Shown here piece by piece: positions 7,186-45,923 of a DNA stretch of 64,000 bases. The position numbers and the translations under genes were made by a program. The notes below the pieces were generated by a model, which saw only the letters and a list, made by a program, of their open reading frames with translations, searched no databases and was not told the origin of the DNA. Positions within the stretch are counted from its first letter, which is position 1. Every line of letters begins with the position of its first letter. This DNA comes from a bacterium. Lineage in GTDB: Bacteria; Patescibacteriota; Patescibacteriia; Patescibacteriales; GWE2-39-37. The DNA is taken from contig JBAWWA010000001.1 in NCBI GenBank assembly GCA_037146995.1, positions 9,072 through 73,071 on the forward strand. Direction: 5' to 3'.

Positions 7186-7905
7186 TTATGGCTTACCACC
7201 TAGGGGTGCATTATCAATAGCCTCCGCCTCGATAACACCATCAATAACTTTACCTAATACTAATAATCTCCCACCTTTGAATATTTTAAAATTTTTACCA
7301 ACCTGAGTTTTGGCTGTAATTTTAATGCTTGTTGTTGATCTATCTCTATTTTCCAAAACAAAACCGTTATCTATTACTTCAATGACAGTGCCGGGATGAA
7401 AATCAACAGAATTCGGTCTAGTGTATTCATCATAAAACATTTTGGCATAGCCGGGATTATTTTTCTTTATCGCTTTATATATTGATTCATGAATTGCAGT
7501 TTGCCGCACAGCAAAACTCACGGCTAAGACAATTACAATGATACCAACAGCAGAATATAATAACGGCTTGCGATACACAAAGCTATAGCGGCTAACCAGC
7601 GCTTCAAGGGTTATTATCAATATTAAAGCTAGAAAAATCAAAAACCACGGGAAATTGCTCAACAACAATTCAACACCCTTAATGCCAAACATTGGCAAAT
7701 ACCACAACTCGGATGCCTGTAAGGCATAAATAACAAAGCTTAATAAAAATAACACAAAAGCAATGACTACTGTTATGGCTAATATATACAGCGCCCCTCG
7801 CATAACAAAAACGGCCTTAGGGGTTTTTTTAATTTCTCCTTTGGATATCTTAGATAAGACAACGTCTTTAATGTTACTAGCGTGATTACTCATATATTTA
7901 CTCAT
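7186..7905 (-). CDS. Membrane protein, putative anti-sigma factor partner of the upstream ECF sigma
   Basis: 239-aa ORF whose start overlaps the sigma-factor stop by 8 nt. N-terminal cytoplasmic segment, about 4 TM helices and a C-terminal beta-rich domain. Architectural paralogue of 3140..3877. Confidence 0.6.
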   Translation of the reverse strand: MSKYMSNHASNIKDVVLSKISKGEIKKTPKAVFVMRGALYILAITVVIAFVLFLLSFVIYALQASELWYLPMFGIKGVELLLSNFPWFLIFLALILIITLEALVSRYSFVYRKPLLYSAVGIIVIVLAVSFAVRQTAIHESIYKAIKKNNPGYAKMFYDEYTRPNSVDFHPGTVIEVIDNGFVLENRDRSTTSIKITAKTQVGKNFKIFKGGRLLVLGKVIDGVIEAEAIDNAPLGGKP

Positions 7906-8479
7906 TGGTCATGAATTTTCGTAACAACTTTTTTCCCCTACTCAGGCGAATGCCTACGGCCGGAACTGGAATATGTAAAACGTCAGCAATCTCTTTGTAA
8001 TTTAATTCTTGAAAATAATACAAAACTAAAACTTCGCGGTATTTAATATCAACTTTACTAATACTGTCATCTAGAGATGCTCGCAGTTCATTATCAATAA
8101 TTTCTCGATCAGGCTCATCTTTAGAAAATAGCTCGGGAAAAAAGACATCGACACTAACCACAAACGAACGCTCCCTAGTAGTCTTTTTTATTTCATTAAT
8201 AAAACAATTGTGGGCGATCCGATAAAGCCAAGGTGAGAATTTTTTGGACAAATCAAAACTAGCGATATTAACATACGCCTTTATAAAGACTTCCTGAACC
8301 ATGTCCTTGGCGTTTTCAGAGTCAAACAAGAACTTGCGAGCGTAACTCAACATCTTGGCCTCATAACGTTCAACAAGGTGACCAAATTGCTCATTATCAC
8401 CATCTTGGACAAGTTTTACTAAATTTTCATCAGTAATATTTTCCACGGCTCTACTTATTATTACAATTTTTTTAAACAC
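7898..8479 (-). CDS. RNA polymerase sigma factor, ECF/sigma-70 family
   Basis: 193-aa ORF with region 2 (FSPWLYRIAHNCFINEIKK) and region 4 HTH (ELNYKEIADVLHIPVPAVGIRLSRGKKLL). Confidence 0.85.
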   Translation of the reverse strand: MFKKIVIISRAVENITDENLVKLVQDGDNEQFGHLVERYEAKMLSYARKFLFDSENAKDMVQEVFIKAYVNIASFDLSKKFSPWLYRIAHNCFINEIKKTTRERSFVVSVDVFFPELFSKDEPDREIIDNELRASLDDSISKVDIKYREVLVLYYFQELNYKEIADVLHIPVPAVGIRLSRGKKLLRKFMTNE

Positions 8480-10461: not shown

Positions 10462-10464
10462 AAA

Positions 10465-19320: not shown

Positions 19321-19436
<116 letters not shown>

Positions 19437-19456
19437 CGCTGCAATCTATTTCTTGC

Positions 19457-19559
19457 CCCGCATAGCTTTACGCGACGTGGGGTAGCCTGAGCGAATTGAG
19501 TAGTCTTTTTATAATCCAAATGCGATAGCATTTGTCCCGCATAGCTTTACGCGACGTGG
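19457..19559. repeat. Two identical 24-nt direct repeats in the 23S-5S spacer
   Basis: cccgcatagctttacgcgacgtgg occurs at 19457-19480 and again at 19536-19559 (79-nt period). In RNA sense each copy contains a small hairpin GCGUA-aagc-UAUGC. Confidence 0.8.
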
Positions 19560-19615
19560 AACTGCTATTAAAAACAACTGAACATCTCCAGACATTTGAG
19601 TTGAAAACACAAATG

Positions 19616-22693
<3,078 letters not shown>

Positions 22694-23105
22694 CCACATT
22701 TTTGCTTTCAAAAATGTGACTGACATACAATTTATGTATGTTCAATAAGATGCTCAATTGCTTTTACTTACATTGACTTTTTTCATAGAAAGTCTGAGTT
22801 AACTATGAAATTTGCCCCGCCTCGAGCGGGGACTTTTTATACAGAGCATAAACTCTATATATTTGCCTTGGATCAGAAACTTGCTTCGGCTAGGAAGCAA
22901 AATTTCAGACTATTCAATTGTGAATGTTCAAAGCATTCACTGCTCAATTCTTTTGAGAAGTTAAAACTTTAAGGTGTAAGAAACAAAAAACCGCTCCGGG
23001 GCGGTATCAAGGCAACTTAAAAATTTAAGTAAGACCTAACCGCATTTATACTTAGTAAACTCAATTGATTTACACATAATATACATATCACGAAACAGTG
23101 TTTTT

Positions 23106-23196: not shown

Positions 23197-24246
23197 CTAG
23201 GCTTTAAGGGTTTCAGGATTCTCTGCATAGTTCATGGCCACATCCCTAGTTATCAACCCTTGCTTTAATAATAACAAGAGATTCTGGTCCATCGTTTGCA
23301 TGCCAATTTTGGAATTAGTCTCAATAATACTTTTAATTTGTGGGATTTTATTCTCTCGAATCATGTTAGCAACCGCTGGCGTGTTAATTAACAATTCTCG
23401 AACGGCTACGCGGCCATCTACACCATTCTTTGGTAATAAGCGCTGAGAGATAACACAAGCCAGTGAAGCGGACAATTGCATACGGACCTGATTTTGCTGA
23501 TAGGGTGGGAAAATATCTATTATACGATCAATAGTTTGAGCTGCGCTATAAGTATGCAAGGTGGCGAATACTAGATGCCCAGTTTCTGCGAGCGTGACTG
23601 TAGCAGCCATACTCTCAAGGTCTCGCATCTCTCCAACCATAATAACATTGGGATCCTGACGCATGGCACATTTTAGACCGTCAGCAAATGAAATCATGTC
23701 ATCACCGAGCTGTCTTTGCATAAACATGCTCTTTTTTGGCTGAAAAACATACTCAATTGGATCTTCTAGGGTAATTATATTAGCTCTACGGTTCAAATTA
23801 ATATGATTAATCATGGCTGCCAAGGTTGTGGACTTGCCAGAACCAGTTGGACCAGTTACTAATATCAAACCTTGCCTCAAATTTAAGATATCTAAAACAA
23901 CTGGCGGAAGGCCCAAGGCCTTAATATCAGGAATAATATCAGAGATCAGACGAGCGACTAGACCACGATTCTTTTTTTCAAAAAAAACATTCACGCGATA
24001 ACGACTACCATCGGCCAATTGATAGCCAAAATCAAGATTTCTATCCTTAATAAAAGCAAAGCGCTGCTCTGCCGTTAGCATCGAATCAATCAAAACCTCG
24101 ATTTCTTTCTCCTCAAGGACTTTTTTACTGCCTGGCATTTCTAATAAATGCCCATCAATTCTGAGCATCGGCACATAGCCGACCAACAAATGAACGTCTG
24201 AGGCCTTTTCGGTTACGGCAATTGAAAATATTTCTTTTATTGTCAT
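23197..24246 (-). CDS. pilT: Type IV pilus retraction ATPase PilT
   Basis: 349-aa ORF with Walker A GPTGSGKSTT, Walker B/Asp box IIMVGEMRD, His box and the typical N-terminus ASDVHL. The size fits PilT/PilU rather than PilB. Confidence 0.9.
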   Translation of the reverse strand: MTIKEIFSIAVTEKASDVHLLVGYVPMLRIDGHLLEMPGSKKVLEEKEIEVLIDSMLTAEQRFAFIKDRNLDFGYQLADGSRYRVNVFFEKKNRGLVARLISDIIPDIKALGLPPVVLDILNLRQGLILVTGPTGSGKSTTLAAMINHINLNRRANIITLEDPIEYVFQPKKSMFMQRQLGDDMISFADGLKCAMRQDPNVIMVGEMRDLESMAATVTLAETGHLVFATLHTYSAAQTIDRIIDIFPPYQQNQVRMQLSASLACVISQRLLPKNGVDGRVAVRELLINTPAVANMIRENKIPQIKSIIETNSKIGMQTMDQNLLLLLKQGLITRDVAMNYAENPETLKA

Positions 24247-24272: not shown

Positions 24273-26021
24273 TTAATCGATCTTTACTTTGATTTTATCC
24301 AAATCAGTATTAGTAATGCCGTTGCCTAATTTTCGCATAACCGCGAAAGCGTCAGTTGGTCGACCCAAATAATATGCCTTATGATCCTTTGGATTTATAA
24401 AATACGCTTTCCCACCATCTTCTACGTCCAACAATATCCTGCCAGAAAACCTATCTGGATACAATTTTTTGCTATATTGTGTAATTATACTATGTTTAAC
24501 TCCCATACCAAGTTTGCGCATCACCGCAAACGCATCCGTCGGCTTGCCTAAATAATACCTCGACAAATTTAACGGATTAACATACCACGCCTCACCTTTA
24601 CTTTGAACTTGTAGCAAAATCTTGCCAGCATTTTTTGCAGAAAAGGCTAAATTAAAAAACAATTTACCCTTGCCTTTAGGATTATTATCCGAGATAATCT
24701 CAGTCCTGTCATTATAGCCATCGCCGTCAGAGTCTTTTTTATTAGCGTTCAGACCAAGGGCCACCTCCAGCGAATCAACCAAACCATCGCCATCAGAATC
24801 TGTATTTTTTTCGGCCACAGATGGCTTTACTGGATTACTAGTGCTAGGCCTGGTTGAGGTTGCCACTGAACTTGAAGCAATTATTGATCCACACGTCTGT
24901 GTTAATATTGGCGCCCCACCACTACAACCACCTGGCAAGCTAGTCAAAATTGTCCTTGCTTGCTTGCCAGCAACACAACTAGTCCAAACTGAATAAGTCC
25001 AGCTAGTACAGGCTGCCGCTGTAAAGCTGCCACCACCAGAGCCACCAGACCCTCCAGGACTCACAACTGGCGTAACCACGGCCGCCTGCGTTGTCGCTGA
25101 TGAAGTAGCAGATAAGGCGGAATCGTTACCAGCTGCATCATATGCAGACACTCTGTAGCTATAAAGAGTCGCGGCGGATAAACCGGTATTAGAATATGAA
25201 TTTGTAGCTGTCTGAGCCAAGAAAACATTGTTTCTATAAATTTTGTAACCCAAAACTGCAATATTGTCAATTGATGGGGTCCAGGTGAGACTAATCTGAG
25301 TAGAGGAATTTACTGTCGCTTGTAAATTCGTAGGCACGGATGGCAAGGTAAGATCAGAACCACTACCAACACCAAACATTATTGTGTAATCAGAGTTATT
25401 AACATTTCCCGCCTCATCAGCGCAACGAACGTAATAATGATAAGTTTGACTATCAGTTAGACCTGTAACCACAACTGTATGCGAAGTGCTGGCGACAGCC
25501 TCGAAGACTTTTGTCATACTAGAATATACAACTCCCGTTGATGTAGAATATTTACAAATTGCTTTCTCATCCGTTATCAAGGTTAGAGTTGTCTGAGTTG
25601 TGCCCGTAGCTAACAAACCAGAGGGCGCCCCAGCTGAAAGGACTGGCGGAGCAATGAGCTTGCTTTGCTCTGACGAACAAACACTTTCATTATTTGAGGT
25701 ATCATAAGCCGTTACTGCAAAATAATATGTTAAATTATCAGTCAATGAACTAAAAGTATGAGTTGTCGAGGTGGTACCTACCATGTGATAACTAAAGGTG
25801 TACCCCGCTGGTGAAGTGCTAGCCCGACTTACCGTATCATAATAAATATTATAGCCCGCCAAGTCTGGCTCAGTGTTCGCATTCCACGAAACAATCGCCG
25901 TTCCAGCCATGACTGGCAGGGCAAAAAAAGCACCAATGAGAATCGCATAAATCTCAATTAGAAAAACTTTTAACAAACGTCTAATCATACATTTTATAAA
26001 ATTTATTTTTATTATCATCAA
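24273..26021 (-). CDS. P13: secreted/anchored multi-Fn3 protein with TSP3-like Ca-binding repeats and duplicated C-terminal domain
   Basis: 582-aa ORF; the likely start is ATG 25988 (MIRRLLKVFLIEIYAILIGAFFALPVMA|G). The first Fn3 starts directly at strand B (TAIVSWNANTEPDLAGYNIYY). Two more Fn3 modules follow, then a Gly/Ser linker and DSDGDGLVD...DSDGDGYND. The C-terminus carries two copies of a ~55-aa module (...YYLGKPTDAFAVMRKLGMG / ...YYLGRPTDAFAVMRKLGNG). Confidence 0.85.
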   Translation of the reverse strand: MMIIKINFIKCMIRRLLKVFLIEIYAILIGAFFALPVMAGTAIVSWNANTEPDLAGYNIYYDTVSRASTSPAGYTFSYHMVGTTSTTHTFSSLTDNLTYYFAVTAYDTSNNESVCSSEQSKLIAPPVLSAGAPSGLLATGTTQTTLTLITDEKAICKYSTSTGVVYSSMTKVFEAVASTSHTVVVTGLTDSQTYHYYVRCADEAGNVNNSDYTIMFGVGSGSDLTLPSVPTNLQATVNSSTQISLTWTPSIDNIAVLGYKIYRNNVFLAQTATNSYSNTGLSAATLYSYRVSAYDAAGNDSALSATSSATTQAAVVTPVVSPGGSGGSGGGSFTAAACTSWTYSVWTSCVAGKQARTILTSLPGGCSGGAPILTQTCGSIIASSSVATSTRPSTSNPVKPSVAEKNTDSDGDGLVDSLEVALGLNANKKDSDGDGYNDRTEIISDNNPKGKGKLFFNLAFSAKNAGKILLQVQSKGEAWYVNPLNLSRYYLGKPTDAFAVMRKLGMGVKHSIITQYSKKLYPDRFSGRILLDVEDGGKAYFINPKDHKAYYLGRPTDAFAVMRKLGNGITNTDLDKIKVKID

Positions 26022-26152
26022 CTAACTTAATACAAATTAATTATAGCCTAATTCTTGAAAAATGTCATAAATTTTATATTTTTTTGCGCGATAGTCTATA
26101 ATTAAACATCACAACGCTAGTTGCAATTAACTATTTGCATTTTACATTCAAG

Positions 26153-28501
26153 CTAAAACACACTCAAACCACTTGGCGCGCCTGGGGCAACGATATCAAC
26201 AGCCGACCCGACCTCATAAGCACCCCAATCAATACCTGCGCCGAATGGACGAGAATTTCCTAAAATATCAACTGCTGGAATTGTCACTGCGCCAAACACG
26301 GTGCTGCCTGCAATTGAACTTGCCATGTCTATAGCAGGACTTCCAATTTGAGGAACAACATCCCAGCGCTCGCCATATGTATAAATATCATTATAGGCCG
26401 TATAAGGTGGAACATTTTGCAGTAATGGATTCACGCACAAAACATTATTTGGCACAGAACAAAGATTGAATTTTGAGTTAAAAACAATTGAATCTTTGTT
26501 GTCAAATAAAACTGGATTAGTGGCAGCGCAGGAGCCATCCCCATTGCCACTCCAACCATCCAAATAAAAAGTGTCAGCATAAGTTCCCGGAACGATGCCA
26601 ACCTGAGAAGCACTCCACCATTCCATGCCAGCAAAAATGTTGTTTCGGGAATAGACTTTTTGATTTCCATCGCAAACGCCAGAATGAGTTAATGAATTAA
26701 ATGCATAAAACCCATCAGTTTGAGATCCAATTCCCGTCATGTGATAAATTCCATTACCATCAGCAATCCATGTTCCGGTGAGTGTTTTTTTGGTATTGTA
26801 ATTATTGTATTGCAAAACAATATCAAAAGTATTTGGATCTTGATTGCCAGGCAAACGCAACCAAATAGAGTCGACTGATAAATTTACAGCATATTGATTA
26901 TCAGAAACAATTGTTGCTGCAGAGCCATCAACTGAAGTGTAATAAACTGCATTAAAAATATAGTTACTACCTGTTATAGCTCCAATTCCTGTCATGTGAT
27001 AAATTCCATTGCCATCAGAAATCCATGAATTTGGCAAGACATAACTAGTCGTGCCAACTCTTGGTAAAATTTGAGCCGTATTAGCATCAGCACTGCCAGA
27101 AAGCTTAACCCACATGGTGTCACTAGCTTGATCAATAATATACTGCCCAACGGCAGTAATTGAAGAAACATTTGTTAGTGAGCCACTAAGGCCAGCCTGT
27201 GTAGCTCCACCGCCAGTACCAATTTCAATAAAAACTTTATTAGGACCAATAATGGTTGAATTGACTATTGAACTTTCTCGTCCGCTTCTCCAATTTGAAA
27301 GCATGATTGGGGTTCCTGCTGCCCGACAATTTGGAAATCCAGTTTGAAATGCAATAGGATTATTGAAAAAATAATTACAATCACCAATAATAACACTGTT
27401 TTCAACAAAAGAATTTCCTCCAAATTTAATTTGTTGACCAACATTCCCTTCCGCTCTAATTCTATTTGCTTTAATTGAGCCAGTGGTTCCAATGTGATAT
27501 AACAAGTCAATTCCATCTTGGGTGTTATGCATAAACTCACTATCTTCAAAAATCCAATCACCCGCAGTGAAATACATACCAAGGCCATCACCATAACCAC
27601 CTTGACCTTGACCATAGCAGCCGCCAGTTGCTATGTCGGGATACACACCTGTCAAAGGATAATTTTCCACACAACCAGTATAATTAATTTTACTATTTTT
27701 AAATAAAATAGTGCCGTGCATTGAACTATCAGTCCCCGAGCCAAAAGCTCCATGTCCAACATCACCATTCCAGCCACTAAAAGCATTACCATGAATATTA
27801 ACCCCATCAAAAGTCCAGTCCGTCAATCTCCCTGCCCAAATTGCCCCATTTGAAAGACCATGAATTTTAATATCCTTCAATAAAACATTGGCACTATCCT
27901 TGGCATATATTCCATAATCAGCTTGATCACCATATGGCGCAACACTTCTATTACAAAGTAATGTTGGATTTGAGGTGAAATTATATCCACATTGCAAATG
28001 ATCAGTAATATCGAGATACATTAATTCAACATTTGAACTTCCAACCAAGCTCAAAATTTGCGTAGCTCGACCTGATCCCCAAAGCTCAGGAGCTGAAGTT
28101 GATTTTGTGTCCCAATTTTGACCAATAATTCTGGTTGGATGCAATGCATCAGGACCAGAAGGGATTGAAGGCGTAACACATTGATAAGTCCAAGCAGCGT
28201 TGCAGGCTGACATTCCGGTGTTCGGCGCACCTGCCCCCATTTTATATGAACCATTTCCAATCATTACCGTATCACCACCAGCAATAACAGCTACGTCACC
28301 TGGCGGCAAAAGCCAAAAAGGATGATTTACAGCACAAGCCTGAGCAGTTCCACTGCCTGGATATGCAGCATCAGCAAGTCCAGTGCACTCCGTCAATGTA
28401 CCACCATCAGTTCGCACATACCAAGTTGCTGCGCTAGCAAAATTTGGCAGCGCAAAAAATATTACCAAAATAAAAAATGATTTTATATTAATTATATTCA
28501 T
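26153..28501 (-). CDS. P12: secreted right-handed beta-helix (pectate-lyase-like) protein with internal 85-aa duplication; C-terminal tag VDIVAPGAPSGLSVF
   Basis: 782-aa ORF with signal peptide FFILVIFFALPNFASAA. It has Gly/Asn-rich beta-helix coils, a repeated W[IS][AS]DGNGIYHMTGIG module and the conserved C-terminal tag. The enzymatic assignment is tentative. Confidence 0.85.
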   Translation of the reverse strand: MNIINIKSFFILVIFFALPNFASAATWYVRTDGGTLTECTGLADAAYPGSGTAQACAVNHPFWLLPPGDVAVIAGGDTVMIGNGSYKMGAGAPNTGMSACNAAWTYQCVTPSIPSGPDALHPTRIIGQNWDTKSTSAPELWGSGRATQILSLVGSSNVELMYLDITDHLQCGYNFTSNPTLLCNRSVAPYGDQADYGIYAKDSANVLLKDIKIHGLSNGAIWAGRLTDWTFDGVNIHGNAFSGWNGDVGHGAFGSGTDSSMHGTILFKNSKINYTGCVENYPLTGVYPDIATGGCYGQGQGGYGDGLGMYFTAGDWIFEDSEFMHNTQDGIDLLYHIGTTGSIKANRIRAEGNVGQQIKFGGNSFVENSVIIGDCNYFFNNPIAFQTGFPNCRAAGTPIMLSNWRSGRESSIVNSTIIGPNKVFIEIGTGGGATQAGLSGSLTNVSSITAVGQYIIDQASDTMWVKLSGSADANTAQILPRVGTTSYVLPNSWISDGNGIYHMTGIGAITGSNYIFNAVYYTSVDGSAATIVSDNQYAVNLSVDSIWLRLPGNQDPNTFDIVLQYNNYNTKKTLTGTWIADGNGIYHMTGIGSQTDGFYAFNSLTHSGVCDGNQKVYSRNNIFAGMEWWSASQVGIVPGTYADTFYLDGWSGNGDGSCAATNPVLFDNKDSIVFNSKFNLCSVPNNVLCVNPLLQNVPPYTAYNDIYTYGERWDVVPQIGSPAIDMASSIAGSTVFGAVTIPAVDILGNSRPFGAGIDWGAYEVGSAVDIVAPGAPSGLSVF

Positions 28502-28553
28502 AAACTTTCAGTCAAAAACTGATCAATTTTTTGACTGATTTTTAATATTTTAA

Positions 28554-31013
28554 TTACAATACACTTAGGCCACTTGGGGCACTTGGGGCTATAACATCAC
28601 CTGAAAAATATTCGAAAGCTCCAAGATCCATAGCACTACCATTTACAACTCTTAACGCCTGTAATTGTGGATCGCTATACGACATTTGAACTGGTAAAAA
28701 ATCTGCTGGCATTGCAGCACCTTGATCGATATTTTGCGATGTTGCCAATAAATTAAAATTAAGTGATCCAGTAGTTGTAGAAATAAACCCAGCATTTCTT
28801 TGTGGATTATTAATAAAATTTGCAGTCCCGGCAATATGCCCGGTAAAAATACCATCTGAACGATTTCTAGTCCAGGTAGAATTGACCCAGTTTTTTCCAA
28901 AATAAGCAACGCCTTCATTTGACAGTAAGTCCTGATCTGGAACCGTTTGGGTATTCACTGGAATAAAATTAACAATATTATTACGAGCGTCCAAGCTCTC
29001 TCCCGCGCTAGACATGTCAAAAACATTAACTCGCCATGCCTGTGACTGGTCAGCAATATTTACCAGCGTGTTGTGATAAAATGCCAAGATGCCTTTACGA
29101 TAACTCGGTGTCACACCACCATCTCCACCATAATGAATAGGTGTTGCAGCTCCGCCAGGAAATTGATTATAAAAAATATTTCCATAAACAAAAGTCTTAT
29201 TATAAGAATCCAAATAAACTTCAGATGCTTGATAATTTTGTGACTCAACCAAATCTATTAAATGTCCACCTCCTTGAAACCAGTTATAGCGAATAATTGT
29301 TCCTGCGCCGCGATCTTTTAATCCGCCACCGACTGATAACGCCCGAAGTGGTCCATATTTATTATATTGATATATAACATTTATGCCTTCAACATATGAA
29401 TTATGCTGTTGACTACTGCTGACTGTGCCATTGCCATAAATATAATTTGATTCAAAAATAATATCCTCTAAGTTTCGCTGATCCCCCTGCCCAGCACCAA
29501 AAATACCGTCGTTATTGCCATGTATAATATTATTTTTAAAAGTAATATGATCACCTTTTTCAATATAAATACCACATCCGTGACCATAAGTTCTAACCAA
29601 GCCATTAAAGTCGGTGTATGTTGTTGGGAAACCGGGGTCGCCACCATACCCGTTTGTTATTTCAAAATTATTAAAATTAAAATACCCAGGACTCCAGCCA
29701 GAATCATTTTGCGTCGGACGATAACTAATCAAAACAAGCGCCACGTCATGAAGTGGCATGTAGCTACGATTCCACTGGGAATTTTCAATGGCATTGGATC
29801 CGTCAATGATCGGAAGTTTACCCGTTGTCGGATCTGCTATGCCCTGAATTATAATAGGAGCTACAGCCGTGCCACGCACTGAAATCATGGGCTTTTCATA
29901 ATATGGCACGACGTCACCATTTCCGTTTTTATTTGGATAAACATTAACAGTATCCCCGGGACCTAGTAATGACCAATTCAGAGCACCTAACGATGTATAA
30001 GTTTTTCCTGGACCGATCTCATAAACCTTCGCAGAGCCCGTGCCAGAACTTGCACTGCGAATTTTTATAGTATTAGAATAGCCAGAATTTCCGTTCACAT
30101 TTTTTGCGCGCACGCGTACGTAATAAAATTTTTCGGCTAAAGTTGTAAGATTATAATTTGTAGCACCTGATGCAGTTTCTGCCACTTGCGTCCAAGTTGG
30201 CAGTGTTGGTGCCCAGGCAAAAGGAGCTGTTTCTATTAGATAGCTAGAAGCTCCGGTATTTGTATCATTCCAAGATAAAGTTGTTTGTACGGAACTATTC
30301 ACCACGCCAGACAAATTTGTCGGCTCAATGGGCAAATTAACTGCTTTACTTTGGGTAATCGCACTTACAGGCAGTGTGTAATCACTATAATTAGAGCCAG
30401 TAACCAATCTGATACGATAGTAATAAGTTGTTGCAGGAATTAGCGGTGTATCAATAAAGTTAAGGCCAACGCCGCCACTACCTACAACTGAAACTATTGA
30501 ATATGAAACATTGTCCATCGATCTTTCCAAAAACCAGCTGCGAGACATAGTGTTATTGTCATTCCAATTCAAGGTAATTGAATACGGCGAAGTTGCTGTT
30601 GCTTTAAAGCTTTCTGCTGGCAAAGCAGTTACAGCACCACTTACTTTTGTTGTCGTGGCAATGCTTTGCACTGGAGCAGAGCTACCATTAATATTATCGG
30701 CTGTTATCTGATAAAGATACGAAGTTGCAGGATAAAGAGAGGTGTCAGTAAAAATATTCGAACCGGCTGGTAAGATTTTAACTTTTTTATATATTCCGCT
30801 GTCAAATCTCCAGATCGTAATTGACGTTTCTCCGCCTCCTACTCTTTCCCATGTTAAATTTATTTCAGTGTCAGAGACTGGCATCACTTCTAAATTAATT
30901 GGAGATGATGGCTCGCCCGCAGCCTTTGAAAAACCTGGCAAAATTAAAAGCAAAATCAAACAAATATATATTTTAAATTGTATTTTAAGACAACTCATTA
31001 ATTTTTCAATCAA
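28554..31013 (-). CDS. P11: secreted protein with three N-terminal Fn3 domains and a beta-helix (NosD/pectate-lyase-like) domain; C-terminal tag GDVIAPSAPSGLSVL
   Basis: 819-aa ORF. The track start is TTG, and ATG at 30998 (MSCLKIQFKIYICLILLLILPGFSKAAG) is more likely. It has three complete Fn3 modules (SSPINLEVMPVSDTEINLTW...), beta-helix repeats (NNIIHGNNDGIFGAG...) and the conserved tag. Confidence 0.85.
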   Translation of the reverse strand: MIEKLMSCLKIQFKIYICLILLLILPGFSKAAGEPSSPINLEVMPVSDTEINLTWERVGGGETSITIWRFDSGIYKKVKILPAGSNIFTDTSLYPATSYLYQITADNINGSSAPVQSIATTTKVSGAVTALPAESFKATATSPYSITLNWNDNNTMSRSWFLERSMDNVSYSIVSVVGSGGVGLNFIDTPLIPATTYYYRIRLVTGSNYSDYTLPVSAITQSKAVNLPIEPTNLSGVVNSSVQTTLSWNDTNTGASSYLIETAPFAWAPTLPTWTQVAETASGATNYNLTTLAEKFYYVRVRAKNVNGNSGYSNTIKIRSASSGTGSAKVYEIGPGKTYTSLGALNWSLLGPGDTVNVYPNKNGNGDVVPYYEKPMISVRGTAVAPIIIQGIADPTTGKLPIIDGSNAIENSQWNRSYMPLHDVALVLISYRPTQNDSGWSPGYFNFNNFEITNGYGGDPGFPTTYTDFNGLVRTYGHGCGIYIEKGDHITFKNNIIHGNNDGIFGAGQGDQRNLEDIIFESNYIYGNGTVSSSQQHNSYVEGINVIYQYNKYGPLRALSVGGGLKDRGAGTIIRYNWFQGGGHLIDLVESQNYQASEVYLDSYNKTFVYGNIFYNQFPGGAATPIHYGGDGGVTPSYRKGILAFYHNTLVNIADQSQAWRVNVFDMSSAGESLDARNNIVNFIPVNTQTVPDQDLLSNEGVAYFGKNWVNSTWTRNRSDGIFTGHIAGTANFINNPQRNAGFISTTTGSLNFNLLATSQNIDQGAAMPADFLPVQMSYSDPQLQALRVVNGSAMDLGAFEYFSGDVIAPSAPSGLSVL

Positions 31014-31097
31014 AATTTATTAGCATGTCACAAGATTACTAATTATTAATTATAGCACGCAACGAGTTTTTTTAAATAAAAACAGCTTAATAAATCT

Positions 31098-33389
31098 TTA
31101 TAGCACTCTTAGTCCGCTTGGAGCAACTGGTGCTATGAAATCAGCAAGTGGTGCCTCCCCTGTTTTTACAACTTCAAATACACCGCCCCCGGTTGCGCTG
31201 AAATTTAAAACGCCTTGCGATGAAGCAACTGTTGCTGTGATAATTTTTATTCCATCACGATATACATCGTATAAAGCTGGCTCAATGTCCACTAAAATAT
31301 GATTACCCACTGAAGAATATACTGCAGTGTAGGTCACAGCATTTTGCTGCACTGTTTGATATGTTGTTTTGCCTGTTATTTGATCAACTCCCTGACTCAT
31401 TTGTTTTGAAAACATCACAATCTTTGGATTTAACTGTTCAATAAGAACGCCAGACATTGCAACAGTATCTATGCTGTAGGTCTTTGGCATAATATCAGTA
31501 CTTGAACCAGCAATAATAACAGTTAATGGATTCCAATCAGTAACACCGATCGCTGGAAACAATTTTATTCTTGGAAGAACAGATGGAGCGTCAGAAACAT
31601 CAATTGTCATAGTTCCATCAAAAGCAATTGGTTTAATGAATAATCGAGATTGGCCAACCGTAGATTCTATAATTCCATTAGAATTAATATTTGTTGACTG
31701 TTTATTCAAATGAAAACGTAATTCTTTTGTATAAGTTGCAAGCTTTGCTTTTATTTTGTCATACAAGACAATTGTTGTTCCTCCAATATTTACATAATTT
31801 CTATGGAAATATCTAAGGGTGCGATTTGCGTCATTTTGCAAATAAGGTTGAATTTCATATGCTGAAGTGTGATCACTTTTCATATAGACAAAATTTGTAC
31901 CAATTTCATGCTTCAAATTTGTATTTGTCCCATAGCCCTCTTGACCACCAGTGTAGGCAGGATTAGAAATATTATTATAGACACCACCATCATTCCAAAA
32001 TAATGTATTATTTCCATCGCCTCTCATGTCATCAGCTTCTGGAGTTCCACTGATGCCGTCAGCGCCTTTCCATATCCACGCATTAGCCAAAAGTTGATCA
32101 GGGCCTCGAGACAAAAGAATGCTGCCAGCGGCTTTTGATTGGTGGTCAGACCAATTCCACGAACCTCCATTGTATGATGACCAAACAGCATTGTCACTCC
32201 AGTCGGACCTAGCGAAAACATGCTGATCTGGAATTGAATGATATATTAGTGGTTGAATATTTCTGTAATCAGTTTGTGTTCTTGATGTGTCTTGAAAAAG
32301 TGCAGCAATAAATTTTGGATTATCTTGTCCAACACGTCCACTTGGTCCAATTGCCATATGATTAACAAAATATGCCATTTGATCGCCTAGCGTTCCATTT
32401 AATGTTGTAGTAAGCATCATTGCCAATTCAGGAGATAGTTGGCCCTTATATGGAAATGGCCAATTTCCCTCATCAGGAGCTTGCCATCTATTCGGCATTA
32501 AATTATATATCAATGATGTGGCCATTGCCTCAACAGCACCTGACGGCATAATGTCGACGTCAGTGTTGGTTGTTATTTTCTTGAAATTTTTATATGCGAA
32601 TGCAAACTGATTAAGTCTTGAATAGTGCTCAGGGCCATAACTAAAACCTTGTTGTGGCCAACCACTGGATTGAGAACCGCCAGCCGCAAAATCAATTGCA
32701 ACAGTAGAATCCCAAAGTGATTTCATGTATGGCAAAAATTTAATTCCATCGCCTCTGATGTTGTCATCATCCATTGCCATTCCAGCCAATCCAAAACCAA
32801 GTAGATGTCCACCAAAATAATTACTCAGTGCTGGACCAGTGCTTTCATATACTGGATGATTTTTGTAATAATCAAACCAAGTATTTACTTGTGATATCAG
32901 TGCTGCCTTACGACCATTTTGATTCAATGCTGGATAGTCATACAGCCAATCATAAATAATAGCAGTAGCTGTAACAACATTTCTGGTTGGATAGCCATTG
33001 TCAACTGAAATACATGTCAAAGGAGCTGCAATAATAACATCAGCTATTTGAATAAGTTTATCAGCATAAATAGTATTACCGGTAACTTTCCAAGCAAGTG
33101 CCAGTGCTTCAGTGGCTTCAAGCCAACTTTGACCCTGATAGCTATATGGTATAGAACCATTTGGCCAAGCATATGGATCATAGGCAGGAACATTTTTTGC
33201 AGCATATGCATCAGCATCAGCTTTTAATGCCAACCAAGTTGGATCATTAGATACCATTTTAGATTGAATCCTTGTCTCTATTTCTGCATTCAGAAAAATC
33301 AAAGGCGTTCCCGTTCTGGCCTGAACAAAAATTGGCGCAATAAAAAATAACGTGAAAATAAAAAATAATTTCAATAACTTATTTTGCAT
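31098..33389 (-). CDS. P10: secreted heparinase II/III-like (alginate-lyase-fold) protein; C-terminal tag ADFIAPVAPSGLRVL
   Basis: 763-aa ORF with a signal peptide. It has an alpha/alpha-toroid-like N-terminal half (IIYDWLYDYPAL) and a beta-sandwich C-terminal half. Paralogue of 48754..51087. Fold assignment by motif recognition only. Confidence 0.85.
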   Translation of the reverse strand: MQNKLLKLFFIFTLFFIAPIFVQARTGTPLIFLNAEIETRIQSKMVSNDPTWLALKADADAYAAKNVPAYDPYAWPNGSIPYSYQGQSWLEATEALALAWKVTGNTIYADKLIQIADVIIAAPLTCISVDNGYPTRNVVTATAIIYDWLYDYPALNQNGRKAALISQVNTWFDYYKNHPVYESTGPALSNYFGGHLLGFGLAGMAMDDDNIRGDGIKFLPYMKSLWDSTVAIDFAAGGSQSSGWPQQGFSYGPEHYSRLNQFAFAYKNFKKITTNTDVDIMPSGAVEAMATSLIYNLMPNRWQAPDEGNWPFPYKGQLSPELAMMLTTTLNGTLGDQMAYFVNHMAIGPSGRVGQDNPKFIAALFQDTSRTQTDYRNIQPLIYHSIPDQHVFARSDWSDNAVWSSYNGGSWNWSDHQSKAAGSILLSRGPDQLLANAWIWKGADGISGTPEADDMRGDGNNTLFWNDGGVYNNISNPAYTGGQEGYGTNTNLKHEIGTNFVYMKSDHTSAYEIQPYLQNDANRTLRYFHRNYVNIGGTTIVLYDKIKAKLATYTKELRFHLNKQSTNINSNGIIESTVGQSRLFIKPIAFDGTMTIDVSDAPSVLPRIKLFPAIGVTDWNPLTVIIAGSSTDIMPKTYSIDTVAMSGVLIEQLNPKIVMFSKQMSQGVDQITGKTTYQTVQQNAVTYTAVYSSVGNHILVDIEPALYDVYRDGIKIITATVASSQGVLNFSATGGGVFEVVKTGEAPLADFIAPVAPSGLRVL

Positions 33390-33395
33390 TTGTTA

Positions 33396-33404
33396 ATTTT
33401 AACA
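33396..33404 (-). promoter_or_regulatory. Extended -10-like element (TGTTAAAAT) 6 nt upstream of the P10 ATG
   Basis: Minus strand reads tgttaaaat-taacaa-ATG. No Shine-Dalgarno is visible, and the spacing would place the transcription start at or near the ATG (leaderless). Confidence 0.35.
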
Positions 33405-33427
33405 CACTAATTATTTTATCTTCTTAT

Positions 33428-35056
33428 TCACAACACGGAAAGACCACTTGGTGCGCTTGGTGCGACGCCATCACTTATTTCATAAATATTGGCAGCTGTC
33501 ATTGTTGGCGAAGAACCTTGGTAATTCCAAATATAGTCGGTGAGTGGTGTCGCAGTTGATCCAGCGAGATGTGCAAAGCCGCGATCACCACCAGGTCCAG
33601 AAGAGCCATACATCTTCATCTTCATGGCCCAAATTGCTTCATTTGGCAGAGGCCATATTGGTGTTGTGGTAATATTATTCCAGTCCGTTTCACCATACAA
33701 AGACCCGCTTTTACCTATTTGATACAAAATATTGGCCCCAATATCTCCACCATCGCTAGCTATACCACTTAATTGTGAGCCGTTCTCGATTCTGGGCAAA
33801 TATTTAAGTGAATCTATGAATGGATTTATACTATTACCATTCGTAACCGTTGTTCCAAGAATTGAACCAACAATATTTCCAAAATTATTAATGTAGGAGG
33901 CATTTCGCGTATAATATAGTCCGTATCTTACATTATTTACCACTATGGAATTAGTAACATCTAAAAATCCGGTAACATAGCCAGGATTACTATTAAAGCC
34001 ATCGCGATAAGTGCTAGCTCCAACAGTTAAATGCTCAGACGATGTGGTTCCGACCGTATTACTGCTAAGAGTTACGCCATTTAAATTTCCCCACAAGACC
34101 GTATCTTTGAGCGTGAAGGTATTAATATTTTCTTGAGGAAAAAATCCACTATACTTTTCGTTATTTAGACCGATTGAGCCAATCACCAAATGATTTAAAG
34201 TTGTCGGAGCGCTAAGTGGATAGTTAGCAGTTGCCGCAAAGGCCCCATAATGCTCGCTAATACTAGAATCTGTTCCATCTAAGACAATGCAATTTTGACA
34301 AACATTATCGTGGCCATTATAAAACATGATCCCACTAACCGGTCCTTGAGCAGCATCATCTTGTCTAACTATTACCCGACGAAAAATTGAATGATCCGCG
34401 CCAGGAGTATTGCCACCAAAGTAGAGACCATAACGTCCACGACCCCACGCCCAGTCATCTTCAAACAAATTGTAAGTCGAAGGAACTGGATTATTAGTGT
34501 CACCATTACCACCCACCAAATCAGCGATTGGGCATTGACCAGTACTTGAAGCGCTTTGACCATCTTCGAATCCACAGTTGGTGATTTTATTATAACTACC
34601 CTTAATTGAAAAAACACCACAATTACCATTTCTGAAATGAATACCATCGACATGCAAATACTCAGAAGCTGGCATTGCTTGGTTACTATTGTCAAAAGGA
34701 GCCATGAGATATTGACCATCAATAATTGTTTGCCCAATATTACGAGCTTTTATTGTAGAATAACTATCTAATACGCCTGATTTTGGGAAAAAACTAGTCG
34801 AAAAATTAATCATATTGGCAACACCAATATATACGCCATCATTTATGACAATTGTATCACCAGCGCCTGCTGTCATTTTTTTTATTGCATCAGCTATGTT
34901 GCCATAACAATTTGAATCACTCCAGTCATCTACAATACTACTTCCAACTGTTTTTGTGCCAGTAAGGGAAACATTAAAAGTTGCAGCACTGGCAAAATTT
35001 GGCAACACTAAAAATGCCACCAAAACAAGAATTAACTTTAATGTTTGCTGTTTCAT
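33428..35056 (-). CDS. P9: secreted right-handed beta-helix protein; C-terminal tag SDGVAPSAPSGLSVL
   Basis: 542-aa ORF. Signal peptide MKQQTLKLILVLVAFLVLPNFASAA is identical to that of P8. It has beta-helix-type repeats and the conserved tag (stop TGA). Confidence 0.85.
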   Translation of the reverse strand: MKQQTLKLILVLVAFLVLPNFASAATFNVSLTGTKTVGSSIVDDWSDSNCYGNIADAIKKMTAGAGDTIVINDGVYIGVANMINFSTSFFPKSGVLDSYSTIKARNIGQTIIDGQYLMAPFDNSNQAMPASEYLHVDGIHFRNGNCGVFSIKGSYNKITNCGFEDGQSASSTGQCPIADLVGGNGDTNNPVPSTYNLFEDDWAWGRGRYGLYFGGNTPGADHSIFRRVIVRQDDAAQGPVSGIMFYNGHDNVCQNCIVLDGTDSSISEHYGAFAATANYPLSAPTTLNHLVIGSIGLNNEKYSGFFPQENINTFTLKDTVLWGNLNGVTLSSNTVGTTSSEHLTVGASTYRDGFNSNPGYVTGFLDVTNSIVVNNVRYGLYYTRNASYINNFGNIVGSILGTTVTNGNSINPFIDSLKYLPRIENGSQLSGIASDGGDIGANILYQIGKSGSLYGETDWNNITTTPIWPLPNEAIWAMKMKMYGSSGPGGDRGFAHLAGSTATPLTDYIWNYQGSSPTMTAANIYEISDGVAPSAPSGLSVL

Positions 35057-35155
35057 TTGTTAATTATAGCACAAGAAACTTATTCAAATTTACTCCGATC
35101 CAGTTATAATTTTATTATAACACACTCAAACCGCTTGGTGCACTTGGAGCAATCA
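34992..35155. repeat. 164-bp perfect direct repeat, copy A (P8 C-terminus + spacer + P9 signal peptide)
   Basis: By manual alignment it is identical base for base to 38077-38240. It spans the last 14 codons of one gene, the 58-nt spacer and the first ~22 codons of the next gene. Confidence 0.85.
35063..35071 (-). promoter_or_regulatory. Extended -10 element (TGCTATAAT) 6 nt upstream of the P9 ATG
   Basis: Minus strand reads tgctataat-taacaa-ATG with no Shine-Dalgarno. The same element sits before P8 (38148-38156). Confidence 0.4.
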
Positions 35156-38141: not shown

Positions 38142-38240
38142 TTGTTAATTATAGCACAAGAAACTTATTCAAATTTACTCCGATCCAGTTATAATTTTAT
38201 TATAACACACTCAAACCGCTTGGTGCACTTGGAGCAATCA
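38077..38240. repeat. 164-bp perfect direct repeat, copy B (P7 C-terminus + spacer + P8 signal peptide)
   Basis: Identical to 34992-35155. The copies lie 3085 bp apart in direct orientation and flank the whole P8 gene. Confidence 0.85.
38148..38156 (-). promoter_or_regulatory. Extended -10 element (TGCTATAAT) 6 nt upstream of the P8 ATG
   Basis: Minus strand reads tgctataat-taacaa-ATG. It is part of the 164-bp repeat. Confidence 0.4.
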
Positions 38241-41115: not shown

Positions 41116-41123
41116 TTTTATAC

Positions 41124-43400: not shown

Positions 43401-43406
43401 GAGTTA

Positions 43407-43415
43407 GTTATAACA
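43407..43415 (-). promoter_or_regulatory. Extended -10-like element (TGTTATAAC) 6 nt upstream of the P6 ATG
   Basis: Minus strand reads tgttataac-taactc-ATG with no Shine-Dalgarno. Confidence 0.3.
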
Positions 43416-43462
43416 TGGAAAAATTTATTTTTGCGAGCGACTTAATTTCAAGTACAAAATTT

Positions 43463-45916: not shown

Positions 45917-45923
45917 GTTTCAA

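What the first reader, a model, noticed from the sequence alone, without database searches (positions are those of the whole stretch)
24273..26021. Second strand-A-less Fn3 protein closes the array and contains the tag sequence as a genuine internal domain-leading strand
After its signal peptide (ALPVMA|G), P13 begins directly with TAIVSWNANTEPDLAGYNIYY. This is homologous to the P1 Fn3 and likewise lacks an A strand. Inside P13, the junction into its second sandwich domain reads KLIAPPVLSAGAPSGLLATGTTQTTLTL. There the A-P-S-G-L motif is followed by the rest of a domain. This supports reading the enzymes' C-terminal tag as a truncated domain-leading strand. The two acceptor-like genes sit at the two ends of the tagged-enzyme array (54241 and 24273).
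Basis: partly seen in the sequence, partly recalled or inferred. Interest (0 to 1): 0.6.

Follow-up and report, generated by a model that had tools for sequence, protein, structure and literature searches.

The report
Split Fn3 docking module for enzymes
P13 is a secreted surface protein whose first fibronectin-type domain lacks its first beta-strand, and the 11 neighbouring enzymes each end in a 14-residue tail that matches that missing strand, so this ultra-small bacterium probably hangs many enzymes on a shared anchor by strand complementation, which has not been tested by binding.

Summary
P13 (24273..26021, minus strand) has a signal peptide followed directly by an Fn3 domain that starts at strand B. 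Pfam aligns it from profile position 15, and AlphaFold2 gives a confident six-stranded sandwich. Its internal GAPSGLLA segment is modelled as strand, not linker. P1 and P13 flank 11 secreted enzymes that all end in D-x-x-A-P-x-A-P-S-G-L-x-V-L-COOH.

In 670 internal copies of this Fn3 subtype the consensus is DTTPPAAPTGLxATAGD|G.A.L.W. The tag is therefore the linker plus strand A, cut three residues before the point where P13 and P1 begin. AlphaFold2 models the tag on an enzyme as the only disordered segment. Tagged proteins lay next to, or within 3.5 kb of, strand-A-less Fn3 proteins in nine further independent loci, including a Saccharibacteria operon and one with a dockerin and a cohesin gene.

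Caveats:
- The internal APSGL belongs to a different Fn3-like family with a shifted register, so it is weak evidence.
- Strand-A-less first domains also occur without tags (Manganitrophus).
- Binding is inferred, not shown.

Best reading: a split-Fn3, donor-strand docking system. I found no description of it in the searchable literature.

The parts
24273..26021 (-). P13: a secreted 582-aa multidomain protein. I propose it is a surface-associated acceptor and scaffold.
   Evidence: ORF. Identical database protein P0001. AlphaFold2 model with mean pLDDT 82.5. The N-terminal 300 residues match three tandem FnIII domains in the PDB.
25905..26021 (-). P13 signal peptide, with predicted cleavage at VMA|G. 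The true start is probably the ATG at 25988.
   Evidence: Modelled as a helix. Eighteen homologues have A-x-A|G or V-F-A|G at the same place, directly before the module. Sequence verified. No dedicated signal-peptide predictor was available.
25650..25904 (-). P13 domain 1: the strand-A-less Fn3 module (GTAIVSWNANTEPDLAGY...SKLIA), the proposed acceptor of the tag.
   Evidence: Pfam fn3 aligns from profile position 15. Six strands at pLDDT of about 90. 38% identical to the P1 module.
25608..25640 (-). Internal LSAGAPSGLLA: the leading (A/A') strand of P13 domain 2.
   Evidence: Modelled as strands 117-121 and 124-126 (P0001 numbering) at pLDDT above 90. The family consensus DTTPPVRSNGSPSGxLSSGTTQTT shows a different register from the tag.
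25365..25649 (-). P13 domain 2: an Fn3-like, Pur_ac_phosph_N-type sandwich.
   Evidence: Pfam PF16656. AlphaFold2 model.
25089..25349 (-). P13 domain 3: a canonical seven-strand Fn3 with its own strand A (LPSVPTNLQATV).
   Evidence: Pfam fn3, residues 229-307 aligned to profile positions 2-81. AlphaFold2 model.
24804..25088 (-). Low-confidence linker containing a four-Cys motif (CTSWTYSVWTSC...C...C).
   Evidence: pLDDT below 50. Sequence.
24672..24803 (-). Bacterial TSP3-type repeats (DSDGDG), a family described as calcium-binding.
   Evidence: Pfam PF18884 at 24.6 bits, just under the 25-bit gathering cut-off. Sequence.
24273..24671 (-). Two C-terminal alpha/beta repeats (GKILLQVQSKGEAWYVNP...YYLGKPTDAFAVMRKLG). 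I presume they attach to the wall or surface.
   Evidence: AlphaFold2 model, pLDDT 82-94. Many Patescibacteria proteins share these repeats. P13-like proteins carry PG_binding_1 in the same position. The attachment function is inferred.
53819..54241 (-). P1: a 140-aa protein with a membrane helix (54137..54202) and a strand-A-less Fn3 module (53867..54121). It is the other proposed acceptor.
26153..28501 (-). Tagged enzyme 11: a beta-helix protein with a choice-of-anchor Q domain. Tag DIVAPGAPSGLSVF at 26153..26197.
   Evidence: In the AlphaFold2 model only residues 769-782, which are the tag, fall below pLDDT 50.
28554..31013 (-). Tagged enzyme 10, with a complete N-terminal Fn3. Tag DVIAPSAPSGLSVL.
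31098..33389 (-). Tagged enzyme 9, heparinase II-like. Tag DFIAPVAPSGLRVL.
33428..35056 (-). Tagged enzyme 8, no Pfam match. Tag DGVAPSAPSGLSVL.
35115..38141 (-). Tagged enzyme 7, heparin lyase-like. Tag DLIAPSAPSGLSVL.
38200..41115 (-). Tagged enzyme 6. Tag DVIAPSAPSGLSVL.
41124..43400 (-). Tagged enzyme 5, GH123-like. Tag DVVAPSAPAGLNVL.
43463..45916 (-). Tagged enzyme 4. Tag DMIAPNAPSGLSVL.
45924..48746 (-). Tagged enzyme 3, PcRGLX-like lyase. Tag DVTPPTAPSGLAVL.
48754..51087 (-). Tagged enzyme 2, heparinase II/III-like. Tag DIIAPSAPSGLIVL.
51116..53746 (-). Tagged enzyme 1, interrupted by an in-frame TAG at 52619..52621. Tag DIVAPNAPSGLSVL.

Best explanation
P13 is the surface-associated 'acceptor' half of a split fibronectin type III domain, and the 11 upstream enzymes carry the 'donor' half.

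Proposed mechanism:
1. After Sec export and signal-peptide cleavage, mature P13 begins at strand B of its first Fn3 domain. The B-E sheet then lacks strand A.
2. Each enzyme ends in a flexible 14-residue tail, D-x-x-A-P-x-A-P-S-G-L-x-V-L-COOH. This is the linker plus strand A of that same Fn3 subtype, cut at the A/B hairpin turn.
3. The tail inserts antiparallel to strand B of P13, or of the membrane-anchored P1, and completes the sandwich.
4. The non-covalent complex has the layout enzyme-Fn3-Fn3-Fn3-linker-surface-binding repeats. One anchor gene can then serve many enzymes, which is economical for a reduced genome.

Shown here:
- The missing strand in P13 domain 1.
- Sequence complementarity in exact register.
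- The free tail on an enzyme model.
- Selection on the tag at the peptide level.
- Recurrent gene linkage between tagged proteins and strand-A-less Fn3 proteins.

Inferred:
- That the two halves physically bind.
- That the C-terminal repeats of P13 attach it to the cell surface.
For: 1. Missing strand. Pfam fn3 aligns from profile position 15 or 16. AlphaFold2 gives six strands at pLDDT of about 90.

2. Exact complementarity. Of 670 internal copies of this Fn3 subtype, 595 have a P..P leader. The modal consensus is TTPPAAPTGLxATAGD|G.[AV].L.W. The consensus of 36 tags is DTTAPSAPSGLSVL-COOH, with P-9, P-6 and G-4 invariant in the 36 tags, L-3 and V-1 present in 35 of 36, and D-13 used as the anchor of each 14-residue slice. 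Only the three-residue turn is absent between the end of the tag and the start of the acceptor.

3. The tag sits on at least five unrelated catalytic folds. It is the only segment below pLDDT 50 in an enzyme model with pTM 0.88.

4. Peptide-level selection. Codons vary synonymously, and the degenerate pattern gives 9 matches against 0 in shuffles.

5. Gene linkage. P1 and P13 flank the array. Adjacent pairs were found in:
- a Saccharibacteria operon, strand-A-less Fn3 with PG_binding followed by a tagged beta-helix protein (L018);
- L021;
- L024, L025 and L026/L027;
- L028, where the second strand-A-less Fn3 carries a dockerin-like tail and a cohesin gene follows;
- L032, with tagged genes on both sides.
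Variant tails lay 2-3.5 kb from strand-A-less Fn3 proteins in L029 and L030. Nine control loci had none.

6. A choice-of-anchor Q domain sits directly before the tag. That is the position where other homologues carry different anchors.

7. Donor-strand exchange has been demonstrated in CPR bacteria for other proteins (bioRxiv 10.64898/2026.03.03.709456).
Against: - No binding test was possible.
- AlphaFold2 folds domain 1 confidently without strand A, so it may be stable alone.
- Strand-A-less first domains are common in lineages where no tag was found: FCB-type tandem arrays and two Manganitrophus proteins with no tagged neighbour within 10 kb.
- A 24-kb Moraniibacteriota stretch holds 5 tagged genes and no acceptor.
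- P1-like and P13-like genes are also an adjacent pair on their own. This could mean that they bind each other instead.
- No solved homologue exists by sequence.
Confidence: 0.6

Rival explanations
1. P13 domain 1 is a self-sufficient six-stranded Fn3 variant. In this reading it is simply how the first copy after a signal peptide is built in this subfamily. P13 is an ordinary surface or adhesin protein. The tag is read by a different receptor, such as a sorting factor or a binder of C-terminal peptides. Gene adjacency only reflects a shared role in surface glycan processing.
For: AlphaFold2 is confident without strand A. The same strand-A-less first copy occurs in FCB-type tandem arrays and in Manganitrophus, with no tags nearby. 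P0190 has internal strand-A-less copies after Gly-rich linkers. A tagged array was found with no acceptor within 24 kb.
Against: This reading does not explain why the tag is exactly the leader plus strand A of this subtype, ending in the same register in 36 cases. It does not explain why tagged genes are immediate neighbours of strand-A-less Fn3 genes in nine independent loci. No alternative receptor, such as a PDZ domain or a sortase-like enzyme, is encoded in the window.
Confidence: 0.2
2. The two strand-A-less modules pair with each other, edge to edge through their exposed B strands. Membrane-anchored P1 would then hold P13-like proteins at the cell. The tag would bind elsewhere or serve a different purpose.
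For: P1-like and P13-like genes are directly adjacent in L022, L023, L026/L027 and L028. The two modules are homologous.
Against: This leaves the tag unexplained. L018, L024, L025 and L032 have a P13-like protein and tagged proteins without a P1-like gene in the fetched stretch. The reading is compatible with the main explanation, and both could be true.
Confidence: 0.1
3. The tag is a substrate motif for covalent attachment. A transpeptidase would join the enzyme to the N-terminal Gly of mature P13-like proteins or to the cell wall.
For: Mature P13-like proteins almost always begin with Gly. The tag sits where homologues carry sorting signals, directly after a choice-of-anchor Q domain.
Against: The tag has no hydrophobic helix or basic tail after the motif. 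No sortase- or exosortase-like gene lies in the window. The same Gly is conserved in uncleaved P1-family proteins and in complete internal domains (GDG turn), so it is structural. No energy source for ligating a free carboxylate outside the cell is evident.
Confidence: 0.07
4. The tag is a functionless relic of truncated Fn3 domains left by gene fission or cassette recombination.
For: Two junctions are identical at the DNA level across the tag, the intergenic spacer and the next signal peptide (downstream of 35115 and 38200). This shows recent recombination.
Against: The other junctions differ at synonymous sites while the peptide is kept. The tag is conserved across several Patescibacteria lineages and always ends three residues after G-L.
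Confidence: 0.03

Closest known systems
Donor-strand complementation in chaperone-usher pili (Pap/Fim)
   Same: An Ig-like sandwich lacks one strand. It is completed by a short strand supplied by another polypeptide.
   Different: There the missing strand is the C-terminal G strand, and the donor is an N-terminal extension of the next pilin. A chaperone and an usher are needed, and the product is a polymer. Here the missing strand is the N-terminal A strand of an Fn3, and the donor is a C-terminal tail on enzymes. No chaperone or usher gene is present. The acceptors carry no donor tail, so no filament is expected.
Type V pili of Bacteroidia (FimA/Mfa1), protease-mediated strand exchange (PMC13655056)
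   Same: An N-terminal segment is removed by a protease, and the extreme C-terminal strand of a partner then fills a groove. The C-terminus itself is essential.
   Different: Those are transthyretin-like pilin domains, cleaved by gingipain, that form a polymer. Here the only N-terminal processing proposed is signal-peptide removal, the fold is Fn3, and the partners are enzymes and an anchor.
Pam pili of CPR bacteria (bioRxiv 10.64898/2026.03.03.709456)
   Same: Donor-strand exchange with truncated Ig-like domains in Patescibacteria that have no outer membrane. The components are membrane-anchored.
   Different: Different proteins: PamA/PamB pilins with a linker strand and PapD-like chaperones. 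They build filaments and do not dock enzymes. No sequence relationship was seen here.
Cohesin-dockerin cellulosomes
   Same: Many secreted glycan-active enzymes carry one short C-terminal module that docks on a shared, cell-attached scaffold. In L028 a strand-A-less Fn3 is fused to a dockerin-like tail next to a cohesin gene.
   Different: A dockerin is a folded, calcium-binding domain of about 70 aa that binds the face of a complete cohesin. Here the tag is 14 residues and would complete an incomplete fold. The window has no PF00404 or PF00963 match.
C-terminal sorting signals (LPXTG, PEP-CTERM, T9SS CTD and others) that follow 'choice-of-anchor' domains
   Same: Position at the extreme C-terminus of secreted proteins, directly after a choice-of-anchor Q domain. 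Restricted to particular lineages.
   Different: No transmembrane helix or basic tail, no 80-aa CTD, and no match to any NCBIfam sorting-signal model.
Engineered split-domain tag/catcher pairs such as SpyTag/SpyCatcher (from my own knowledge, not checked here)
   Same: A short peptide strand completes a truncated Ig-like domain.
   Different: Those are engineered from CnaB2 and lock with an isopeptide bond. Here the split is natural, the fold is Fn3, and no covalent chemistry is indicated.

Membership tests
Fibronectin type III domain (Pfam PF00041) | Sequence match above the Pfam gathering score | tested here: met
   P13 scores 62.9 bits against a cut-off of 25. Domain 1 alone scores 25.7 bits and P1 scores 33 bits.
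Fibronectin type III domain (Pfam PF00041) | Complete seven-strand sandwich (A-B-E / C'-C-F-G) | tested here: not met
   For P13 domain 1 and P1 the profile match starts at position 15 or 16, and the model has six strands. Domain 3 of P13 does meet this feature.
Donor-strand complementation systems (chaperone-usher, type V and Pam pili) | Acceptor domain with an incomplete Ig-like fold | tested here: met
   This rests on sequence and model only, not on an experimental structure.
Donor-strand complementation systems (chaperone-usher, type V and Pam pili) | A partner carries a strand that fits the missing position | tested here: met
   The tag equals the leader plus strand A of the same Fn3 subtype, in register. 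It is a free tail on the enzyme model.
Donor-strand complementation systems (chaperone-usher, type V and Pam pili) | Physical insertion of the donor strand into the acceptor | not testable with these tools
No multimer prediction tool was available.
Donor-strand complementation systems (chaperone-usher, type V and Pam pili) | Dedicated chaperone and usher, or a processing protease, encoded nearby | tested here: not met
   No PapD-like, usher-like or protease gene was found in the window.
Donor-strand complementation systems (chaperone-usher, type V and Pam pili) | Subunits carry both donor and acceptor and polymerise | tested here: not met
   P1 and P13 have no tag. The enzymes have no strand-A-less module.
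Cohesin-dockerin cellulosome | Dockerin (PF00404) on the enzymes and cohesin (PF00963) on the scaffold | tested here: not met
   Neither domain matches in P13, P1 or the 11 enzymes. A cohesin gene is present only in the related locus L028.
Known C-terminal sorting signals (LPXTG, PEP-CTERM, GlyGly-CTERM, T9SS CTD) | Motif followed by a hydrophobic helix and basic tail, or a CTD of about 80 aa, plus a cognate sorting enzyme | tested here: not met
   The proteins end three residues after G-L. No NCBIfam sorting-signal model matches. No sortase or exosortase gene lies in the window.
Peptidoglycan-binding surface proteins (PG_binding_1, PF01471) | A PG_binding_1 domain | tested here: not met
   Absent from P13. 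Present at the equivalent C-terminal position in P13-like proteins P0012, P0074 and P0037 and in the L018 protein. P13 instead has two repeats of an unnamed domain common in Patescibacteria.

The most novel reading that the evidence does not exclude
Patescibacteria, and in variant form some other phyla, use a natural 'tag and catcher' made by splitting an Fn3 domain at its A/B turn. A 14-residue C-terminal strand on many secreted enzymes would complete a strand-A-less Fn3 on a few membrane- or wall-anchored proteins. This would be a class of enzyme display that has not been described, distinct from cohesin-dockerin and from sortase anchoring. P1-like and P13-like genes would be its conserved core, and it could be layered onto cohesin-dockerin, as L028 suggests.
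Probability: 0.55. Interest if true: 0.85.

Novelty: new variant of a known kind. Interest (0 to 1): 0.78.

Why it matters
If true, it explains how bacteria with very small genomes display a large and changeable set of glycan-degrading enzymes on the cell using one or two anchor genes.

It would add a third natural principle of enzyme docking, beside cohesin-dockerin and sortase anchoring.

It gives annotators a simple rule: a protein ending D-x-x-[AP]-P-x-A-P-[ST]-G-L-x-V-x-COOH is surface-displayed.

It offers a compact, natural, probably non-covalent peptide-and-domain pair that protein engineers could test.

It would also assign a function to a very common but unexplained architecture, in which the first Fn3 after a signal peptide lacks strand A.

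Tried and rejected
1. I submitted an AlphaFold2 job for a fused construct (P13 domain 1, linker, tag) to test docking.

Co-occurrence therefore rests on 12 single look-ups and one genome-collection scan.

3. A motif and HMM search for strand-A-less modules in the tag-selected Moranbacteria, Moraniibacteriota and Parcubacteria loci found none. Most of those loci are 8-kb slices of long arrays, so this is weak negative evidence. The largest joined stretch is 24 kb.

4. NCBIfam returned no known C-terminal sorting signal. The PDB sequence search with domain 1 gave no hit at E <= 0.01. A full-text search for six tag-like strings found no paper.

5. I considered reading the tag as an integral strand of each enzyme's own fold. 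I rejected this because the tag sits on unrelated folds and is the only disordered segment in the enzyme model.

6. I considered stop-codon recoding or readthrough joining the tag to a downstream Fn3. I rejected this because all three stop codons are used, the gaps are short, and each next gene has its own signal peptide.

7. I considered treating the internal APSGL of P13 as a copy of the tag. I rejected this because the family consensus shows a different register.
Full report
**What is at the coordinates**

The window is a low-GC contig (about 38% G+C) with nearly all genes on the minus strand. The tag-bearing relatives found in the genome collection are Moranbacteria, Moraniibacteriota, Parcubacteria and Saccharibacteria MAGs, so the organism is a member of the Patescibacteria (CPR).

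The ORF 24273..26021 (-) encodes 582 aa from a TTG start. The public version, P0001, starts at the ATG at 25988 and is annotated only as 'fibronectin type III domain-containing protein'.

Upstream lie 11 genes for large secreted proteins (26153..53746). They include heparinase II/III-like, PcRGLX-like, GH123-like and beta-helix enzymes. Every one ends in D-x-x-[AP]-P-x-A-P-[SA]-G-L-x-V-[LF]-stop.

Upstream of the array is P1 (53819..54241), a 140-aa protein with a membrane helix and an Fn3 domain. Downstream of P13 are pilT and then a 23S-5S rRNA pair.

**Checking the observation**

The N-terminus reads ...AFFALPVMA|GTAIVSWNANTEPDLAGYNIYY. Pfam fn3 aligns domain 1 only from profile position 15 of 84, and P1 from position 16. 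The region of strand A and the A-B loop is therefore absent.

I predicted the structure of P13 with AlphaFold2 from 63 aligned homologues. Mean pLDDT is 82.5. In the numbering of P0001 the model shows:
- a signal-peptide helix at residues 2-21;
- six strands at 29-34, 43-51, 65-70, 76-82, 86-96 and 108-112, at pLDDT of about 90;
- nothing in the strand-A position.

The internal segment LSAGAPSGLLA is modelled as two short strands, 117-121 and 124-126, at pLDDT above 90, leading into domain 2. It is strand, not linker. Domain 3 is a canonical Fn3. Foldseek against the PDB matches the first 300 residues to three tandem FnIII domains.

P13 domain 1 and the P1 module are 38% identical over 85 residues without gaps (E = 8e-20). 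Both begin at the same Gly.

One qualification applies: AlphaFold2 folds domain 1 confidently without an added strand, so whether the domain is 'complete' cannot be settled by a model.

**The tag is real and under selection**

A degenerate DNA pattern for the tag plus a stop codon matches 9 times in the window and never in 100 shuffles. The codons differ synonymously between genes, including AGT against TCC for Ser. Selection therefore acts on the peptide. Only two junctions are DNA-identical (downstream of 35115 and 38200), which points to a recent duplication.

In the AlphaFold2 model of the beta-helix enzyme (pLDDT 89.8, pTM 0.88), the only segment below pLDDT 50 is residues 769-782. That is exactly the 14-residue tag. 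The tag follows a choice-of-anchor Q domain. This is the position where distant homologues end or carry other C-terminal tails.

**What the tag corresponds to**

A search of 1.8 billion representative proteins with P13 domain 1 found 8390 relatives. This Fn3 subtype often forms long tandem arrays. In those arrays the first copy after the signal peptide is strand-A-less, for example ...AMAGELLVTWDANTESDLSGY. Internal copies have a leader and a strand A.

Among 670 internal copies, 595 have a P..P leader. The commonest spacing gives the consensus TTPPAAPTGLxATAGD|G.[AV].L.W. The consensus of 36 tags collected here is DTTAPSAPSGLSVL-COOH. P-9, P-6 and G-4 are invariant in the 36 tags, and L-3 and V-1 are present in 35 of 36; each tag was taken as the 14 residues beginning at D-13.

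The tag is therefore the linker plus strand A of this very subtype. It stops three residues (the 'AGD' turn) before the residue at which mature P13 and the P1 module begin. Together the two halves reconstitute one Fn3 split at the A/B hairpin.

The geometry is sensible. The enzyme would sit at the pole of domain 1 opposite to domain 2. On P1 it would sit at the membrane-distal pole. This is inferred from standard Fn3 topology.

**The internal GAPSGLLA argument is weak**

P13 domain 2 belongs to a different Fn3-like family (Pur_ac_phosph_N type). In 58 copies its leader is DTTPPVRSNGSPSGxLSSGTTQTT|LSLTTNENATCKY. The conserved Leu is G-x-L, and the position directly after Gly is variable (T, V, S or N).

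The APSGL identity in P13 is therefore partly coincidental and one residue out of register with the tag. The segment is a genuine leading strand, but it is not 'the tag sequence'. The internal copies of the domain-1 subtype are the proper comparison.

**Co-occurrence**

Starting from the acceptor side:
- L024: two tagged proteins (...DTTPPAAPTGVSVQ and ...DTTPPVAPTGLVVI) lie directly upstream of P13-like P0003.
- L025: P0012, a strand-A-less Fn3 with PG_binding_1, is directly followed by a protein ending ...DTTPPLAPSGLSVD.
- L026/L027: two tagged proteins, then a P1-like gene, then P13-like P0074.
- L032: P0037 has tagged genes on both sides.
- L021: a protein ending ...DTTPPSAPSGLSIS lies directly upstream of a P1-like gene.

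Starting from the tag side:
- L018 (Saccharibacteria): a gene for a strand-A-less Fn3 with a peptidoglycan-binding domain is followed after 6 nt by a beta-helix protein ending ...APKAPTGLAVF.
- L028: tagged P0280, then a P1-like gene, then a strand-A-less Fn3 with a dockerin-like tail, then a cohesin gene.
- L029 and L030: exopolysaccharide loci, one of them with exosortase genes. Variant tails (...APVGLRIIKK and ...SAPARVRFK) lie 2.2-3.4 kb from strand-A-less Fn3 proteins.

Nine control loci, which were chance pattern hits totalling 65 kb, contain no such module. If tagged genes make up about 2% of a genome, as I assume, adjacency in five of six acceptor-selected loci has a probability of roughly 1e-6. 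This is my estimate, not a tool result.

Two further points. P1-like and P13-like genes are themselves an adjacent pair in L022, L023, L026/L027 and L028. In the window the enzyme array sits between the two members of that pair.

**Counter-evidence**

- Two Manganitrophus proteins with strand-A-less first domains have no tagged neighbour within 10 kb.
- FCB-type arrays with T9SS tails show the same strand-A-less first copy.
- P0190 has internal strand-A-less copies after Gly-rich linkers.
- A 24-kb Moraniibacteriota stretch holds five tagged genes and no acceptor.

The module is therefore wider than the tag system, and the linkage is frequent but not universal in the DNA I could see.

**Mechanism proposed**

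I propose donor-strand complementation of a split Fn3.
- Shown: a strand-A-less acceptor, an in-register donor tail that is free on the enzyme model, peptide-level selection, and recurrent linkage.
- Inferred: physical insertion of the tail next to strand B, non-covalent binding, and surface attachment of P13 through its two C-terminal repeats.

P13-like proteins carry PG_binding_1 at the position of those repeats, and P1 is membrane-anchored.

The rivals are:
- a self-sufficient six-stranded domain, with an unknown receptor for the tag;
- P1-P13 edge pairing;
- transpeptidation onto the N-terminal Gly;
- a relic of gene fission.

None of them explains both the register and the linkage.

**Comparison with known systems**

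The principle matches donor-strand complementation in chaperone-usher pili. It also matches type V pili, where a C-terminal strand fills a groove after N-terminal proteolysis (PMC13655056). Donor-strand exchange has now been shown in CPR Pam pili (bioRxiv 10.64898/2026.03.03.709456).

This case differs in fold (Fn3 strand A), polarity (a C-terminal donor on enzymes), the absence of chaperone, usher or protease genes, and the absence of polymerisation. Functionally it resembles cohesin-dockerin, but no such domains occur in the window. It is not a known sorting signal.

No paper in the searchable library contains the six tag-like strings searched. I rate it a new variant of a known kind.

**Limits**

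- I had no multimer modelling and no access to model coordinates.
- One metagenome scan was lost to a tool error.
- No signal-peptide predictor was available. The cleavage site is inferred from the A-x-A|G pattern shared by 18 homologues.

Noticed in passing
window 51116..53746 (-), stop at 52619..52621: The first enzyme of the array appears as two ORFs (375 aa and 485 aa) in the same frame, separated by a single in-frame TAG. It could be a pseudogene, a sequencing error or a recoded stop. The downstream part still carries an intact tag.
   Followed up: partly
window 19321..22694 (-): A 23S rRNA (19616..22694) and a 5S rRNA (19321..19435) lie directly downstream of pilT, with no 16S gene next to them. 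The 23S match spans 3079 nt against a model of 2925, so it may contain an insertion.
   Followed up: partly
window 24804..25088 (-), within P13: The low-confidence linker holds a four-Cys motif, CTSWTYSVWTSCVAGKQARTILTSLPGGCSGGAPILTQTC. It recurs in one to three copies in homologues P0002, P0007 and P0012. It resembles a thrombospondin type 1-like repeat, which is a resemblance from memory. No Pfam match was found.
   Followed up: no
window about 35057..35160 and 38142..38245 (-): The last 11 codons of the tag, the stop codon, the 57-nt spacer and the next signal peptide are identical in DNA downstream of two different enzymes, which suggests recent duplication or gene conversion at the junction. 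A TATAAT box lies only 6 nt before the next ATG, which suggests leaderless transcripts.
   Followed up: no
L028 2430..3841: A 197-aa protein has a signal peptide, a strand-A-less Fn3 and two dockerin-like repeats. It is followed by a gene with a Pfam Cohesin domain. The split-Fn3 system may be stacked onto a cohesin-dockerin system.
   Followed up: partly
L029 10001..12112 and L030 10001..12073; proteins P0279, P0287, P0291, P0292 and P0299: Close homologues of the beta-helix enzyme from exopolysaccharide loci, one with exosortase genes, end in variant strand-A-like tails (APVGLRIIKK, APLNLKRQ, APANLRIKDK, SAPARVRFK, APTNLRIMSQ). The device may extend beyond Patescibacteria with a different tail ending.
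   Followed up: partly
window 53819..54241 (-) and proteins P0122-P0125: The P1 family (126-150 aa) has an invariant Cys pair (GDCP...ESCFS), probably a disulfide. It also has a short amphipathic C-terminal segment after strand G, whose role is unknown.
   Followed up: no
window 8629..12453 (-): An AlwI-type restriction endonuclease lies next to a fused D12-class adenine methyltransferase. Two ECF-type sigma factor genes lie nearby (3882..4472 and 7898..8479).
   Followed up: no
window 61044..61529 (-): A small protein matches the T4SS pilin / TrbC family. Together with pilT at 23197..24246, it shows other surface-filament genes on the same contig.
   Followed up: no
window 26040..26068 (-): A near-consensus sigma-70-type promoter match (ATGACA, 17 nt, TATAAT; 11 of 12) lies about 19 nt upstream of the P13 start. 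P13 may therefore be transcribed independently of the enzyme array. This is a consensus match only.
   Followed up: no
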